Shown here: positions 24,163-44,739 of the stretch, piece after piece
How the letters are laid out: each line of letters opens with the position of its first letter
Position numbering within the stretch: position 1 is the stretch's first letter
From: the human T2T-CHM13v2.0 reference genome, Homo sapiens
NCBI RefSeq assembly: GCF_009914755.1
Contig: NC_060947.1
Strand: one strand, 5' to 3'
DNA: 64,000 bases
Made by a program: the position numbers and the translations under genes
The notes under the pieces: model-generated
What the model saw: only the letters and a program-made list of their open reading frames with translations
What the model was told of the DNA's origin: nothing
The model's database searches: none

Positions 24163-25109
24163 AAATTGTATGTAAGACAGCACTTACGGAGCATTTTTGA
24201 TATAAGAAAATCCTCTCTTCACCAATGAAGTTTCTGAAACTCCAAAGCAGTGACTTACTCCCATCATTTTATGAGCATTGAGTGTGCATGCAGAAACTCC
24301 CACACGCAAGACTTCCTTCAGCTCTCTCTAGGTTTGTGACCTCCTTGTTCTCAGAGAATACTATTACAGTGGAAATCTCTGGTAAGGTATTGGACCCAAC
24401 ACTTAAGCAGGTATCTTTGGACAAGTGGATAATCTTCTCAGGAGCCTCGGTTATTTTAGAGGCTCAAGGTCTACTCACTGTATATGCCATGAATTTACTG
24501 CCATGCTAATTTTGATGGGGGAAATCATTCTAAGCCTCCTTGCATTTAGTTTGAGTCAAGGATAACACAACCTTCTTCTTTTCTCATGAGATTGGAGAAA
24601 ATGGTGGCGACAATAACAATTTCAAATTGTCTTCCCTCCTTTAACCGCCTCAAATATTTTAATTCATTCAGACGAGCCTTGGACCAACAACTGCGGAACA
24701 AATTTGAGTCCAGTGCCTCTGCAAGATCATCCAGCACCTCACTTTAAAATATGTGTGTTGTTGGGGTGGGGGCAATTCTTGGCATCTGTAGTTTTGGCTT
24801 TTGGAATGCTCACATCAGAGAAAACATTGCTTCCAACATCCAGTTCAATGCTGGTTTTCAGGGATATGTCTGACCCATAGCACCCTCACTCACAACACAA
24901 CACCTTTAGTTATAGGCATAATAGTTGCATGTTACAGCCTCCCAGAGAGGTGAGGAGACAGGCCTGAAGCAACCACAAAGCAGTAGTGGCTGCATACTGC
25001 TGTGGGGTCACAATCACCCTCAATGAGAGGTTTATCTGCCCTGAAGGATATGGAGCTGACACTTGCATCTTGCTTGAAACCTCCAACTCATCCTTCTAAA
25101 GAGTAGAAG

Positions 25110-27255
25110 TGAGAGGTGACAGCGTGCTGGCAGTCCTCACAGACCTCACTCACTCTTGGCGCCTCCTCTGCCTGGGCTCCCACTTTGGCGGCACTTGAGG
25201 AGCCCTTCAGCCCACCGCTACACTGTGGGAGCCCCTTTCTGGGCTGGCCAAGGCCAGAGCCGGCTCCCTCAGCTTACAGGGAGGTGTGGAGGGAGAGGCG
25301 CGAGCGGGAACCGGGGCTGCGTGCAGGGCTTGCGGGCCAGCTGGAGTTCCGGGTGGGCATGGGCTTGGCGGGCCTGCACTCGGAGCAGCCAGCCGGCCCT
25401 GCCGGCCCCAGGCAGTGAGGGACTTGGCACCCGGGCCAGCGGCTGCAGAGGGTGTACTGGGTCCCCCAGCAGTGCCAGCCCACCGGTGCTGCGCTTGATT
25501 TCTTGCCAAGCCTTAGCTGCCTTCCCATGGGGCAGGCCTCCGGACTGCAGCCTGCCATGCCTGAGCCTTCCCCCGCCTCCATGGGTTCCTGTGCAGCCCG
25601 AGCCTCCCCGACGAATGCCGCCCCCTGCTCCACGGTGCCCAGTCCCATCGACCGCCCAAGCGCTGAGGAGTACGAGTGCACGGCGTGGGACTGGCAGGCA
25701 GCTCCACCTGCAGCCCCAGTGCGGGATCCACTGGGTGAAGCCAGCTGGGCTCCTGAGTCTGGTGGGGACATGGAGAGTCTTTACATCTAGCTCAGGGATT
25801 GTAAACACACCAATCAGCACCCTGTGTCTAGCTCAGGGTTTGTGAGTGCACCAATCGACACTCTGTATCTAGCTGCTCTGGTGGGGCCTTGGAGAACCTT
25901 TATGTCTAGCTCAGGGATTGTAAATACACCAATCGACACTCTGTATCTAGCTCAAGGTTTGTAAACACACCAATCAGCACCCTGTGTTTAGCTCAAGGTT
26001 TGTGAGTGCACCAATCGACACTCTGTATCTAGCTGCTCTGGTGGGGCCTTGGAGAACCTTTATGTCTAGCTCAGGGATTGTAAATACACCAATCGGCACT
26101 CTGTATCTAGCTCAAGGTTTGTAAACACACCAATCAGCACCCTGTGTTTAGCTCAAGGTTTGCGAGTGCACCAATCGACACTCTGTATCTAGCTGCTCTG
26201 GTGGGGCCTTGGAGAACCTTTATGTCTAGCTCAGGGATTGTAAATACACCAATCGGCACTCTGTATCTAGCTCAAGGTTTGTAAACACACCAATCAGCAC
26301 CCTGTGTTTAGTTCAAGGTTTGCGAGTGCACCAATCAACACTCTGTATCTAGCTGCTCTGGTGGGGCCTTGGAGAACCTTTATGTCTAGCTCAAGGATTG
26401 TAAATACACCAATCGGCACTCTGTGTCTAGCTTAGGGTTTGTGAGTGCACCAATCGACACTCTGTGACTAGCTGCTCTGGTGGGGCCTTGGAGAACCTTT
26501 ATGTCTAGCTCAGGGATTGTAAATACACCAATCGACACTCTGTATCTAGCTCAAGGTTTGTAAACACACCAATCAGCACCCTGTGTTTAGCTCAAGGTTT
26601 GCGAATGAACCAATCGACACTCTGTATCTAGCTGCTCTGGTGGGGCCTTGGAGAACCTTTGTGTCCATACTCTGTATCTAACTAATCTGATGGGGACGTG
26701 GAGAACCTTTATATCTAGCTCAGGGATTGTAAACCCACCAATCAGCACCCTGTCAAAACAGACCACTTGGCTTTACCAATCAGTGGGATGTGGGTGGGGC
26801 TAGATAAGAGAATAAAAGCAGGCTGCCCGAGCCAGTAGTGGCAACCCACTCGGGTCCCCTTCCACACTGTGGAAGCTTTGTTCTTTCGCTCTTTGCAATA
26901 AATCTTGCTGCTGCCCACTCTTTGGGTCCACACTGCTTTTATGAGCTGTAACACTCACCACGAAAGTCTGCAGCTTCACTCCTGAAGCCAGCGAGACCAC
27001 AAGCCCACCGGGAAGAATGAACAACTCCAGACGCGCCGCCTTAAGAGCTGTAACACTCACTGCGAAGATCTGCAGCTTCACTCCTGAGCCAGCGAGACCA
27101 CGAACCCACCAGAAGGAAGAAATTCCGAACACATCCGAACATCAGAAAGAACAAACTCCAGACGCGCCACCTTAAGAGCTGTAACACTCACCGCGAGGGT
27201 CTGCCGCTTCATTCTTGAAGTCAGTGAGACCAAGAACCCACCAATTCCGGACACA
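25110..27255 (+). mobile_element. LTR12C (ERV9) solo LTR, 2146 bp, with expanded internal tandem repeat
   Basis: Starts TGAGAGGTGACAGCGTGCTGGCAG and ends CCAATTCCGGACACA; 4-bp TSD GAAG at 25106-25109 and 27256-27259; CpG-rich 5' part. Confidence 0.97.
25790..26790 (+). promoter_or_regulatory. LTR12 CCAAT-box (NF-Y) repeat array, ~160-bp higher-order period
   Basis: About 18 CCAAT motifs counted by eye; GAGTGCACCAATC recurs with CCAAT at 25851, 26011, 26171 and 26331; AATAAAA at ~26811. Confidence 0.8.
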
Positions 27256-27460
27256 GAAGTTTGGAGTTCAGCTCTTCTTGGTTACAATCTGAGTTCTGTC
27301 TCTTACTGACTCTGAGACCTCTGAAAAGTCACTTATTCTGAATGTCACAAGGCACATTTCAATAACTTTCTCATGCAGTAAAGCTGAAATGAGATGACAA
27401 ATATAAAGCTTTAGTACAACTCCTGCTACTTGACAAGGTCAGCTCTCAGTGTTAGCTACA
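27256..27460 (+). mobile_element. MIR in array unit 1 (paralogues at ~30715-30940, 34085-34300, 37567-37780, 41480-41700)
   Basis: GGAG..GGTT.CAAT..GAG.TC..AAAGTCACTTA..AAATGAGAT..ATATAAAGC.TTAGTACA..TGTTAGCTA follows MIR consensus order, highly diverged. Confidence 0.7.
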
Positions 27461-27509
27461 GTAAGCAAAGGTCAGACTCAGTCTAAAGTGTTCACAAAAC
27501 AGAAGGTGG

Positions 27510-43208: not shown

Positions 43209-43391
43209 TTTTTTTTTTTTTGAGATGGAGTCTCGCTCTTGTCGCCCAGGCTGGAGTGCAGTGGCACAATCTCAGCTCACTGCAACCTCCACCTCCTGGG
43301 TTCAAGCGATTCTCCTGCTTCAACTTCCCGAGTAGCTGGGATTACAGGTGCGCGCCACCACACCTGGCTAATTTTTTGTATTTTTAGTAGA
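43209..43391 (-). mobile_element. Alu right arm only, cut at a deletion junction
   Basis: Poly-T plus right arm ending at TTTTTAGTAGA, then an abrupt switch to mid-MER21 sequence. Confidence 0.9.
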
Positions 43392-43394
43392 AAC

Positions 43395-44025
43395 TATCTG
43401 GGGCACACCAGATAGTTTATGCTAAATATGTGCTTCATGCTAAATATCTGCTTTTGTATGCTTGGCACTTTAGGACATGTTGTATCATTTTGACCTCTGT
43501 GGGGGCTGGAACTGAGTAGCAAAGGTCAATGATCCAGACCCTCCATGGCTCTATGACCAAGGCTGGTAACACTTTGCATGTACTGTGTCACACATCACGT
43601 GCTGGAAGAATTAAACACTGTTCATATAACTCCGCAGGGAGAGGATAGCTGGAAGCTTCAGTCTGGTTTCTTTTGGACTCTCTCCCTATGTGCCTTTTCC
43701 CTTTGCTGATTTTAATGTATACCCTTTTGCTGTAAAAAACTGTAATTATGAGTATAATAGCTTTTGTTTATTCTTTGTTATTTATTTTTATTTTTGCACA
43801 TGGGGTCTTGCTCTGTCACTCAGGCTGGAGTGCAGTGGCCTGATCATAGTTCACTGCAGCCTCAAACTCCTTGGCTCCAGGAATCCTCTCATCTCAGCTT
43901 CCCAAGTAGCTAGGCCTATAGGTGCAAGCCATCATGTCCAACTTATAATAGCTTTTCTGGGTTCTGTGAATTCTTCTAACAAATCACCTATCCTGAGAGT
44001 GGTCTTGGGGATCCCTGGTACACCA
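43395..44025 (+). mobile_element. MER21 LTR, unit 5 copy (5'-deleted), containing an Alu monomer
   Basis: TGCCTTTTCCCTTTGCTGATTTTAAT..GTGGTCTTGGGGATCCC terminus; antisense FRAM/AluJ arm at 43766-43943 with TSD TATAATAGCTTTT (43753-43765, 43944-43956). Confidence 0.88.
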
Positions 44026-44739
44026 AAGAATAAATGCTGTCCAAATGTGAACACGCTTTACCTAATTCAAATAACACGAGAGTTACTTAAAATTTCCAGA
44101 CCGTTGCCTGAAATCCAGAACAACATCTGCAGAGGTATCCTTGACCCCATGTTCTTGGCTTAAATATGCCATAATAGTCCAGAAAAATAACATTGCAATT
44201 TCCACAGATTAGGGCCGTAGCAAAGAATCAGCCTTTTGGAGTAAAGCAAGGCATTAGATTTAGAAGATATTTTTGACTAATGGAGTTTTATATATCAAGG
44301 AAGCCAATATCGACCAATTCATTGAGTAATGAACATAGCACTCTTTTTGATCTGCTTGGTTTATGCAGGCCAAGTGTAACTGGGGATGGATTATCTTCAC
44401 TTAAGCCTCCTAAATTGAGGTCTCAGAAAGTGTAATTCCCCAAGGGAAAAATGGAATGCAAATACTCAACACAATGTTGTAACCAACCAAAATCCCAGGA
44501 GGGATAATACTTACTTTGCTGTCTTGTTACTCAAGGATCCTTACCTGACTACTCAAGTTTGGAGGCTCCGGGGAAGTCAGTATCTCTTTATTCTATCATT
44601 CAATGGAAACTTGTTTGTGCAGAAAAAAAGCACACCTTTGACAGCTTCAGTCCTTTCTGCATTGAGAAATACCTGTTTGTTTTTCATGCTTAGGGAAAAA
44701 ATCAAGGAATATTTTTCAGACCATTTTAATGGAATATAG

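What the first reader, a model, noticed from the sequence alone, without database searches (positions are those of the whole stretch)
24525..44330. Hidden ancient ~3.3-kb tandem array (5 units) of mixed unique sequence and fossil transposons
Seen: five collinear head-to-tail units, each with the same order of unique block A, MIR, MER5 pieces, unique block B, AT-rich spacer, MER21 LTR and unique block C. Landmark spacing is 5624, 3362, 3502 and 3905 bp, which falls to about 3.2-3.4 kb once unit-private insertions are subtracted. Copies are heavily diverged (by eye roughly 70-80% identical, not computed). That is below usual segmental-duplication thresholds, and repeat masking would fragment it. 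Inference: an old array that persisted may have amplified a functional element. Known analogies are miRNA clusters (C19MC, Xq27.3), snoRNA clusters (SNORD115/116), repeat-exon lncRNAs, piRNA clusters and enhancer arrays. I found no known miRNA, snoRNA or gene in the units, so any cargo would be unannotated to my knowledge.
Basis: partly seen in the sequence, partly recalled or inferred. Interest (0 to 1): 0.85.

Follow-up and report, generated by a model that had tools for sequence, protein, structure and literature searches.

The report
Fossil five-copy tandem duplication on Xp
A 3.2-kb stretch of ordinary non-coding DNA on the human X chromosome was copied head to tail five times about 100 million years ago and has decayed almost evenly since, so it looks like a fossil duplication, not a hidden gene cluster.

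Summary
The window holds five collinear head-to-tail units from about 24526 to 44430, with landmark spacings of 5621, 3352, 3514 and 3902 bp. About 3.1 kb is shared per unit, but only 2.6 kb in U5. Pairwise identity is 64-75%.

The unit tree is nearly a star: internal branches make up 4.6% of its length. Every Alu is private to one unit. The LTR-like part is barely closer between units than to unrelated genomic copies. Together these point to one burst of duplication of roughly eutherian age, with no later homogenisation.

I found no cargo:
- no Rfam family in the shared parts
- no hairpin kept at the same place across units
- no covariation
- no Pfam domain in 183 open frames
- no CTCF core motif
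- no CpG island

Decay is close to uniform (relative rates 0.80-1.39). Only block A is mildly slower, at 0.80.

The lncRNA LOC105373150 takes five exons from the array. Only two of them are paralogous.

One new point: block A is not unique. About 12 older copies form a second diverged cluster at chrX:23.16-23.21 Mb, and there are strays at chrX:13.84 Mb and on chr1.

Verdict: a near-neutral ancient tandem duplication of a known kind, and of low interest.

The parts
24526..44430 (+). Whole array: five head-to-tail units plus one extra copy of the roughly 50-nt junction piece at the right end
24573..30194 (+). Unit U1 (5622 nt; 3115 nt shared with at least three units; carries two private insertions)
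30195..33545 (+). Unit U2 (3351 nt; cleanest copy, 13 private nt)
33546..37060 (+). Unit U3 (3515 nt)
37061..40955 (+). Unit U4 (3895 nt)
40956..44336 (+). Unit U5: most diverged (terminal branch 0.32), lacks most of the AT-rich spacer, holds four Alu-derived insertions
30195..30715 (+). Block A in U2. Paralogues are at 24573-25104, 33546-34081, 37061-37568 and 40956-41481. It is the slowest-evolving part (relative rate 0.80) and belongs to an older low-copy family
30975..31600 (+). Zone with three MER5-like pieces in U2 (about 30975-31100, 31255-31410, 31540-31600). Parsed by eye and supported by hits to recalled motifs
31601..31990 (+). Block B in U2. In the whole genome it is found only in the five units
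31991..32525 (+). AT-rich spacer in U2 (GC 0.24), worst conserved and worst aligned (rate 1.39)
32526..33100 (+). LTR-like interspersed repeat in U2, with 41 matches genome-wide at 69-79%
33101..33545 (+). Block C in U2. The genome search finds it only in the array (4 matches, counting U2 itself). Two weak local copies lie upstream
33522..33559 (.). (TC)19 at the U2/U3 junction. All five junctions are pyrimidine-rich
25105..27254 (+). Private 2.15-kb GC-rich insertion in U1 with a 160-nt internal tandem repeat. It is a young high-copy element (91-93% to copies elsewhere)
28571..28888 (.). Private Alu in U1
35488..35720 (.). Private insertion in U3 inside the spacer, not identified
38378..38649 (.). 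Private, strongly diverged Alu in U4
40496..40918 (+). Private high-copy element of about 410 nt in the tail of U4 (81-84% to copies elsewhere)
42238..42867 (.). Two private Alus in U5, in opposite orientation
43209..43396 (.). Private partial Alu in U5
43768..43957 (.). Private partial Alu in U5
27192..27383 (-). LOC105373150 exon in U1. Its acceptor is paralogous to that of the U2 exon. Its donor lies in the private insertion
30708..30863 (-). LOC105373150 exon in U2, over the MIR-like piece. The acceptor AG is kept in 5 of 5 units
34978..35109 (-). LOC105373150 exon in U3, at a different place in the unit
37323..37427 (-). LOC105373150 exon in U4, inside block A. The donor GT is present only in U4
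38154..38239 (-). LOC105373150 exon in U4. Both splice sites are private to U4
21620..22408 (+). Two weak extra copies of the unit tail (block C) together with the sequence that follows U5, about 2.2 kb left of the array

Best explanation
This is the fossil of an ancient tandem segmental duplication.

A stretch of about 3.2 kb of non-coding DNA already carried old transposon fragments: an LTR-like element, three MER5-like pieces and a MIR-like piece. It was amplified to five head-to-tail copies in one short episode, around the time of the early placental mammals. That dating is an inference.

Once the copies had diverged, unequal exchange and gene conversion stopped. The array froze and decayed at close to the neutral rate. 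In primates it picked up Alus and two LTR-type insertions.

Its only visible present use is incidental. The lncRNA LOC105373150 on the minus strand splices five exons out of cryptic sites in the units.

Shown here: the array, its extent, the near-uniform decay, the star-like tree, the private insertions and the exon mapping. Inferred: the absolute age, the mechanism of duplication (unequal exchange or replication slippage at the pyrimidine-rich junction), and neutrality.
For: Array structure.

Star-like ML tree: total length 1.068, internal branches 0.049 (4.6%), terminal branches 0.14-0.32.

No tract of recent conversion. The best 100-nt pairwise windows reach only 79-90%.

Near-uniform rates across partitions (0.80-1.39) with gamma alpha 5.0. 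TE-like and unique parts differ by 0.688 against 0.714.

CpG observed/expected is 0.08-0.19 in 9 of the 10 shared pieces, the same as the flanks at 0.09-0.19. The 379-nt U5 piece 43958-44336 is at 0.37.

Age:
- All Rfam sub-threshold hits (24 of 24) lie in Alu insertions, and each of these sits in one unit only.
- The LTR-like part is 75-79% identical between units and 69-79% to unrelated genomic copies. The array is therefore nearly as old as that repeat family.

No cargo:
- Rfam gives 0 at gathering score in 64 kb.
- 0 of 35 and 0 of 148 open frames reach a Pfam cut-off.
- The best median MFE at paralogous 80-nt windows is -23 kcal/mol, with inconsistent z-scores.
- The RNAalifold covariation term is positive on both strands of block A.
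- 0 CTCF core motifs in the array.

Exons: 5 in the array. Two share one acceptor and three use unit-private sites.

Ancient duplications of 70-80% identity are a described class. [quoted passage not shown]
Against: Block A decays more slowly than the rest. Mean pairwise identity is 0.744 against 0.695 (z +3.9). Its relative rate is 0.80. The best 60-column window is 0.842, with permutation P 0.005, or 0.011 without the spacer.

Block A is also the only part shared with a second ancient cluster. That could mean it is what was being amplified.

An annotated lncRNA is spliced from the array, and one acceptor AG is kept in 5 of 5 units.

U5 has a longer branch (0.32), so the strict single-burst picture is approximate.

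Neutrality was judged from paralogues alone. I could not consult any cross-species, expression or chromatin data.
Confidence: 0.75

Rival explanations
1. Block A, a segment of about 0.3-0.8 kb, is a functional module. It could be a repeated domain of X-linked non-coding RNAs or a regulatory element. On this reading it was amplified more than once on Xp, and the rest of the unit hitch-hiked.
For: Block A is the slowest part (rate 0.80, z +3.9, window P 0.005).

It recurs in about 12 same-strand copies at chrX:23159671-23210908. Two more copies lie at chrX:13.84 Mb and one on chr1.

One lncRNA exon (37323-37427) lies inside it.
Against: The slowing is only about 20%.

Within cluster 2 the block-A copies are 63% identical on average, no better than that cluster's other self-matches at 64-77%.

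There is no covariation and no stable conserved hairpin. There is no ORF with a domain.

The exon in block A uses a donor present in only 1 of 5 units.
Confidence: 0.12
2. The array is a cluster of small RNA genes of the miRNA, snoRNA or piRNA type, with one unannotated gene per unit, as in C19MC or SNORD116.
For: The layout is a tandem one inside the introns of a spliced non-coding host transcript. C19MC has that layout (PMC2691840, search listing and abstract start only).
Against: Rfam gives 0 matches at gathering score. All 24 matches at E up to 1 lie in Alus.

Of 3990 80-nt windows, only 17 outside the private insertions fold as a single hairpin at -25 kcal/mol or below. None recurs in three or more units. 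The best median MFE across paralogues is -23.

The units are too diverged (64-75%), and evenly so, for a conserved 60-100-nt gene to hide in them.

piRNA production cannot be judged from sequence.
Confidence: 0.03
3. The array was generated by recombination between the long terminal repeats of an endogenous retrovirus, with a unit made of LTR plus internal region.
For: Each unit holds an LTR-like interspersed repeat. It is followed by block C, and block C has two extra local copies upstream.
Against: The array does not begin and end in the LTR-like part. It starts at block A and ends in block C.

Blocks B and C have no other copies in the genome, unlike retroviral internal regions.

No retroviral domain was found in 183 open frames.

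The MER5-like pieces lie inside the supposed internal region.
Confidence: 0.05
4. The units are decayed copies of a protein-coding gene family. The neighbourhood on Xp holds multicopy testis genes.
For: None from the sequence. The idea rests only on recalled knowledge of the chromosomal neighbourhood.
Against: 0 of 183 open frames of 42 aa or more reach a Pfam cut-off. The five sub-threshold hits belong to five unrelated families and do not recur at paralogous places.
Confidence: 0.03

Closest known systems
Ancient segmental duplications of 70-80% identity (SDquest; Pu, Lin and Pevzner 2018, PMC5991524, passages read)
   Same: Long paralogous stretches below the classic 90% threshold. They are mosaics of unique sequence and old transposon fragments, and are found only by low-stringency self-alignment.
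   Different: Here the copies are strictly tandem and collinear in five units, and part of the pairs fall below 70% (64-75%). Whether this locus is in the SDquest lists was not checked, as I did not open the supplements.
Composite repeats of the T2T-CHM13 repeat annotation (Hoyt et al., bioRxiv 10.1101/2021.07.12.451456, passages read)
   Same: [quoted passage not shown]
   Different: The 19 curated composites were found as recognisable arrays. This one is frozen and has 25-36% pairwise differences. I could not see their Table S2, because bioRxiv supplements are closed, so I cannot say whether this locus is listed.
X-linked macrosatellites DXZ4, FIRRE and ICCE (PMC6985041 and PMC6125249, search listing and abstract starts only)
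   Same: X-linked, with a unit of a few kb (DXZ4 is 3 kb), non-coding and transcribed.
   Different: No homogenisation (star tree, 64-75% identity), no CTCF core motif in any unit and CpG-poor. Copy-number polymorphism is unknown.
C19MC-type host transcripts with repeated exons (PMC2691840, search listing and abstract start only)
   Same: A spliced non-coding transcript that draws exons from a tandem array.
   Different: Only 2 of the 5 array exons are paralogous, and no hairpin gene sits in the repeated introns.

Membership tests
Ancient tandem segmental duplication | Two or more collinear head-to-tail copies of at least 1 kb, far beyond chance | tested here: met
   Five units. HSPs of 1.9-2.3 kb with E of 0. 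Five-way alignment with 2300 shared columns.
Ancient tandem segmental duplication | Identity below the 90% threshold but still alignable (SDquest used at least 70% over at least 500 bp) | tested here: met
   63.8-75.3% over 2455-3037 aligned nt. 6 of the 10 pairs are at or above 69%, and all four pairs with U5 are at 64-66%.
Ancient tandem segmental duplication | The unit is not just a dispersed transposon, so parts of it occur nowhere else | tested here: met
   Blocks B and C match only the array in the 3.1-Gb genome.
Composite repeat (T2T annotation) | [quoted passage not shown] | tested here: inconclusive
   The LTR-like part is interspersed. The MER5-like pieces are supported by recalled motifs only. 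The MIR-like piece was not verified. No Dfam library was at hand.
Composite repeat (T2T annotation) | Listed in the curated composite track | not testable with these tools
Macrosatellite of the DXZ4/FIRRE/ICCE type | Units kept alike by concerted evolution | tested here: not met
   Star-like tree with terminal branches of 0.14-0.32. No conversion tracts.
Macrosatellite of the DXZ4/FIRRE/ICCE type | A CTCF motif in the units | tested here: not met
   A recalled 13-nt degenerate core with up to 1 mismatch gives 0 matches in the array. It gives 2 elsewhere in the window, against 0.89 expected.
Macrosatellite of the DXZ4/FIRRE/ICCE type | Copy-number polymorphism between people | not testable with these tools
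   Only one assembly was at hand.
miRNA or snoRNA cluster (C19MC, SNORD115/116) | One small-RNA gene at the same place in each unit | tested here: not met
   Rfam gives 0 in the shared parts. No recurrent stable hairpin. No covariation in block A.
Repeat-exon lncRNA | Paralogous exons used in successive units | tested here: inconclusive
   2 of the 5 array exons share one acceptor, whose AG is kept in 5 of 5 units. The other 3 use different places with unit-private sites. Only one annotated transcript was given.
piRNA cluster | Dense strand-biased small RNAs in the germ line | not testable with these tools
   No expression data were available.

The most novel reading that the evidence does not exclude
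Block A may be the shared core of a family of eutherian-age tandem arrays on Xp, with at least 17 copies in two clusters 3.5 Mb apart in opposite orientation, plus strays.

Its slightly slower decay could reflect a function, either as a repeated domain of X-linked non-coding RNAs or as a repeated regulatory module. On that reading the five-unit array is the youngest expansion of this module.
Probability: 0.08. Interest if true: 0.65.

Novelty: new member of a known kind. Interest (0 to 1): 0.27.

Why it matters
As it stands this is a tidy example of how a tandem duplication freezes and decays. It shows that low-stringency self-comparison finds structure that TRF and 90% duplication thresholds miss. 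It also explains where five exons of an uncharacterised X-linked lncRNA come from.

It would matter more only if block A proved to be constrained across mammals. The two Xp clusters would then mark a repeated functional module on the eutherian X.

Tried and rejected
Searches for cargo that found nothing:
- Small-RNA cargo: Rfam at gathering score and at E up to 1 gave only Alu-derived matches.
- Hairpin scans gave nothing that recurs across units.
- RNAalifold on block A, both strands, gave a positive covariation term (+4.7 and +5.1 kcal/mol).
- Protein remnants: Pfam on 35 frames of 70 aa or more and 148 frames of 42-69 aa gave none above a cut-off.
- CTCF core motif: none in the array.
- One search was a bacterial promoter and terminator scan of 100 nt. 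It is irrelevant to a human sequence and should be ignored.

Ideas dropped:
- A longer ancestral tail kept in U4 and U5. The extra 423 nt in U4 is a private high-copy element.
- The chrX:13.84 Mb match as a spliced retrocopy, which would have made block A an exon. It is a contiguous 2.67-kb copy at 92%, plus 150 nt at 94%.
- A shared Alu in U4 and U5. The two elements are no closer to each other (65.5%) than to other Alus (67-72%), so they are independent insertions at paralogous sites.

Steps that were not possible:
- Whole-unit six-frame translation was not accepted because of stop codons.
- A genome-wide search with a profile of block A was not accepted for this genome.
- Control regions and cluster flanks could not be fetched. 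The genome-wide copy number of block A is therefore a lower bound from BLAST-level searches.

Literature: searches for LOC105373150 and NR_188591 found 0 papers. The passages shown from Warburton et al. 2008 list no array at this place (PMC2588610).

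
Full report
**1.

A word-11 self-BLAST of the 64-kb window gives long collinear + strand off-diagonals between about 24.57 and 44.3 kb:
- U1-U2 at offset 5624 and then 3480
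- U2-U3 at 3296-3304 (1912 nt, 73.4%)
- U3-U4 at 3517 (2320 nt, 71.6%)
- U4-U5 at 3476 and then 3901
- second- and third-neighbour lines, such as U2-U4 at 6829 (2338 nt, 72.2%)

The other strong hits in the window are about 300-nt Alu copies on both strands.

TRF, whose longest period is 500, does not see the array. It reports only microsatellites and a 160-nt tandem repeat inside one insertion.

I cut the array into five units:
- U1 24573-30194
- U2 30195-33545
- U3 33546-37060
- U4 37061-40955
- U5 40956-44600

MAFFT aligned them with 2300 columns occupied by all five units and 3109 by at least four. A profile of the shared columns finds the array complete from profile position 1 to about 3165. 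It ends at 44336, with a weak continuation to 44582.

The roughly 50 nt left of 24573 and the stretch 44394-44430 both resemble the inter-unit junction. A block-A profile gives landmark spacings of 5621, 3352, 3514 and 3902.

Sequence shared with at least three units is 3115, 3144, 3063 and 3140 nt in U1-U4, but only 2604 nt in U5. U5 has lost most of the AT-rich spacer.

Pairwise identity is 63.8-75.3% and K2P is 0.30-0.51.

**2. What the unit is made of**

The whole assembly could be searched.
- The LTR-like part (U2 32526-33100) has 41 matches on many chromosomes and both strands at 69-79% (40 of 107 first-look candidates were scored). It is a true interspersed repeat.
- Block B (31601-31990) matches only the five units.
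- Block C (33101-33545) matches only array units, 4 matches counting the query itself.
- In the MIR/MER5 zone, two short recalled MER5-type motifs hit paralogous places in several units and an independent copy at 23968-24045. The counts are 3 hits against 0.04 expected and 6 against 0.31.
- The family names MIR, MER5 and MER21 remain recalled labels. No transposon library was at hand.

Insertions private to single units:
- Six Alu-derived pieces. All 24 Rfam matches at E up to 1 fall in them.
- A 2.15-kb GC-rich element in U1, 91-93% identical to about 2,700 candidate copies elsewhere.
- A roughly 410-nt element in the tail of U4, 81-84% identical to over 10,000 candidates.
- An unidentified 233-nt piece in U3.

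**3. History**

The ML tree of the units is close to a star. Its total length is 1.068 and internal branches sum to 0.049 (4.6%). Terminal branches are 0.14-0.21 for U1-U4 and 0.32 for U5. (U2,U3) has 100% support and (U4,U5) has 83%.

No pair has a tract of near-identity. The most significant 100-nt windows reach 79-90%. The five copies therefore arose close together in time and have not been homogenised since.

Three observations bear on the age.
- Every Alu is private, so the array predates primate Alu activity. The Alus in U4 and U5 sit at paralogous sites but are only 65.5% alike, no closer than either is to unrelated Alus (67-72%).
- The LTR-like part is 75-79% identical between units and 69-79% to unrelated copies of its family. 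The amplification therefore followed the insertion of that element fairly soon.
- Terminal branches are about 0.18 substitutions per site. By my recalled calibration of human-lineage neutral decay, that corresponds to roughly 100 million years. This absolute figure is an inference.

All five junctions are pyrimidine-rich, and one has grown into (TC)19. Slippage or unequal exchange at such a tract is a plausible origin, but it is not shown.

**4. Is anything in it conserved?**

Mean pairwise identity over five-way columns is 0.695. By segment:

| Segment | Mean pairwise identity |
|---|---|
| Block A | 0.744 (z +3.9) |
| MIR-like | 0.708 |
| MER5-like pieces | 0.656-0.724 |
| Block B | 0.695 |
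| LTR-like | 0.681 |
| Block C | 0.682 |
| AT spacer | 0.566 (poorly aligned) |

- TE-like parts together stand at 0.688 against 0.714 for the 'unique' parts, z 2.1 (1.7 for U1-U4 only).
- Partition rates on the fixed tree are 0.80 (A), 0.94, 0.97, 1.39 (spacer), 1.10 and 0.96, and gamma alpha is 5.0.
- The best 60-column window, in block A, reaches 0.842, with permutation P 0.005 (0.011 without the spacer).

There is thus real but mild heterogeneity. Block A decays about 20% more slowly, and nothing is strongly constrained.

CpG observed/expected is 0.08-0.19 in nine of ten shared pieces, as in the flanks.

**5. Searches for a cargo**

- Rfam: 0 matches at gathering score in the whole window and none in shared sequence at E up to 1.
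- Hairpins: of 3990 80-nt windows, 17 outside private insertions fold as a single hairpin at -25 kcal/mol or below. None recurs in three units.
- At 298 paralogous anchors the best median MFE is -23.0, with z-scores mostly above -2.5.
- RNAalifold of block A gives positive covariation terms on both strands.
- Pfam: 0 of 35 open frames of 70 aa or more and 0 of 148 of 42-69 aa reach a curated cut-off. The five sub-threshold hits are unrelated to one another.
- A recalled CTCF core motif has no match in the array.

**6. The lncRNA**

All seven internal exons of LOC105373150 in the window have AG and GT on the minus strand. Five lie in the array.
- Exons 27192-27383 (U1) and 30708-30863 (U2) share one paralogous acceptor, whose AG is kept in all five units. 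It lies over the MIR-like piece.
- The U1 donor comes from the young private insertion.
- Exons 34978-35109, 37323-37427 and 38154-38239 sit at three other places in the unit.
- For the last two, the donor, or both splice sites, are present only in the unit that is used.

This looks like opportunistic exonisation, not a designed repeat-exon gene. No paper holds the gene or transcript name.

**7. An unexpected relative**

Block A is not unique. A genome search found a weak sixth match at chrX:23,198,703.

I fetched chrX:23,150,001-23,220,000. The unit profile gave 16 hits there, 13 of them to block A (profile positions 4-349), all on the minus strand, with E down to 1.6e-34. One further hit covers positions 399-799 (E 3.9e-36). 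That region is itself full of 64-77% + strand self-matches of 0.5-1.6 kb.

A profile of block A alone counts:
- 5 copies in the window
- 16 hits, about 12 copies once split ones are merged, between 23,159,671 and 23,210,908
- 2 at chrX:13,842,711-13,843,482
- 1 on chr1 near 88.72 Mb

The chrX:13.84 Mb locus is a younger inverted copy of a contiguous 2.67-kb piece of the second cluster (92%), plus 150 nt (94%). It is not a spliced retrocopy.

In a tree of 13 copies the five array copies form one clade (99%). Mean identity is 74% within the array, 63% within cluster 2 and 61% between them. Cluster 2 splits into two subfamilies that partly alternate along it.

Block A thus belongs to an older low-copy family centred on Xp, and the array in the window is its youngest expansion. 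Within cluster 2, block A is no better kept than its surroundings. That argues against constraint.

The genome-wide count is a lower bound. A profile search of the genome was not possible, and control regions could not be fetched.

**8. Local extras**

Two weak + strand copies of the unit tail lie at 21620-22034 and 22034-22408. They continue into sequence homologous to what follows U5 (44337-44476), not into the junction. The local history is therefore more complex than one duplication. I did not resolve it.

**9. Comparison with what is known**

- Ancient duplications of 70-80% identity are a described class. [quoted passage not shown]
- The unit's make-up fits the definition of the T2T 'composite' repeats (bioRxiv 10.1101/2021.07.12.451456, passages). 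I could not see their list.
- The array lacks the defining traits of DXZ4-type macrosatellites, namely homogeneity, a CTCF motif and GC-richness, and those of small-RNA clusters.
- The passages shown from a survey of the largest human tandem arrays list nothing at this place (PMC2588610).

**10. Verdict**

The best reading, at about 0.75, is a near-neutral fossil of a eutherian-age tandem duplication, partly exonised by a lncRNA. The functional-cargo idea survives only as a weak possibility attached to block A.

It is a new member of a known kind, and I score interest at 0.27.

Noticed in passing
G000 chrX:23159671-23210908 (loci L013-L018): A second, older and larger diverged repeat cluster. 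About 12 same-strand copies of block A lie in 51 kb, in two partly alternating subfamilies, with 64-77% self-matches of 0.5-1.6 kb between them. It is in inverted orientation relative to the window's array and 3.5 Mb from it.
   Followed up: partly
G000 chrX:13840717-13843501 (locus L020): A younger inverted segmental copy of a piece of that second cluster: 2667 nt at 92%, then 150 nt at 94% taken from 6.2 kb further on. It is contiguous DNA and includes an Alu, so it is not a processed retrocopy.
   Followed up: yes
G000 chr1:88724429-88724560 (locus L021 1429-1560): One autosomal fragment of block A (profile E 4e-22), next to an Alu. It is closest to one subfamily of the second cluster (69-73%). 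This shows the family is not strictly X-linked.
   Followed up: partly
window 21620-22408: Two weak tandem copies of block C together with the sequence that follows U5, lying 2.2 kb left of the array and inside the last exon of LOC105373150 (20910-22150). Their relation to the origin of the array is unresolved.
   Followed up: partly
window 38378-38649 and 42572-42867: Alus inserted at paralogous positions of U4 and U5, next to an A-rich site. They are only 65.5% alike, so they are independent hits on the same target. The U4 Alu is unusually diverged (67-72% to other Alus).
   Followed up: partly
window 25105-27254: A young GC-rich insertion (GC 0.55, CpG o/e 0.42) with a 160-nt internal tandem repeat, 91-93% identical to thousands of candidate copies. 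By recall it resembles an LTR12-type solo LTR. It supplies the donor splice site of exon 27192-27383.
   Followed up: partly
window 23394-23901, 16364-16667 and 63389-63720: Copies of another interspersed repeat of about 500 nt, 70-81% alike. It also occurs twice in locus L006 near a block-A copy. Not identified.
   Followed up: no
window 55177-55189: The only exact match in the window to the recalled CTCF core motif. It lies on the minus strand, outside the array, about 200 nt from exon 54846-54963.
   Followed up: no
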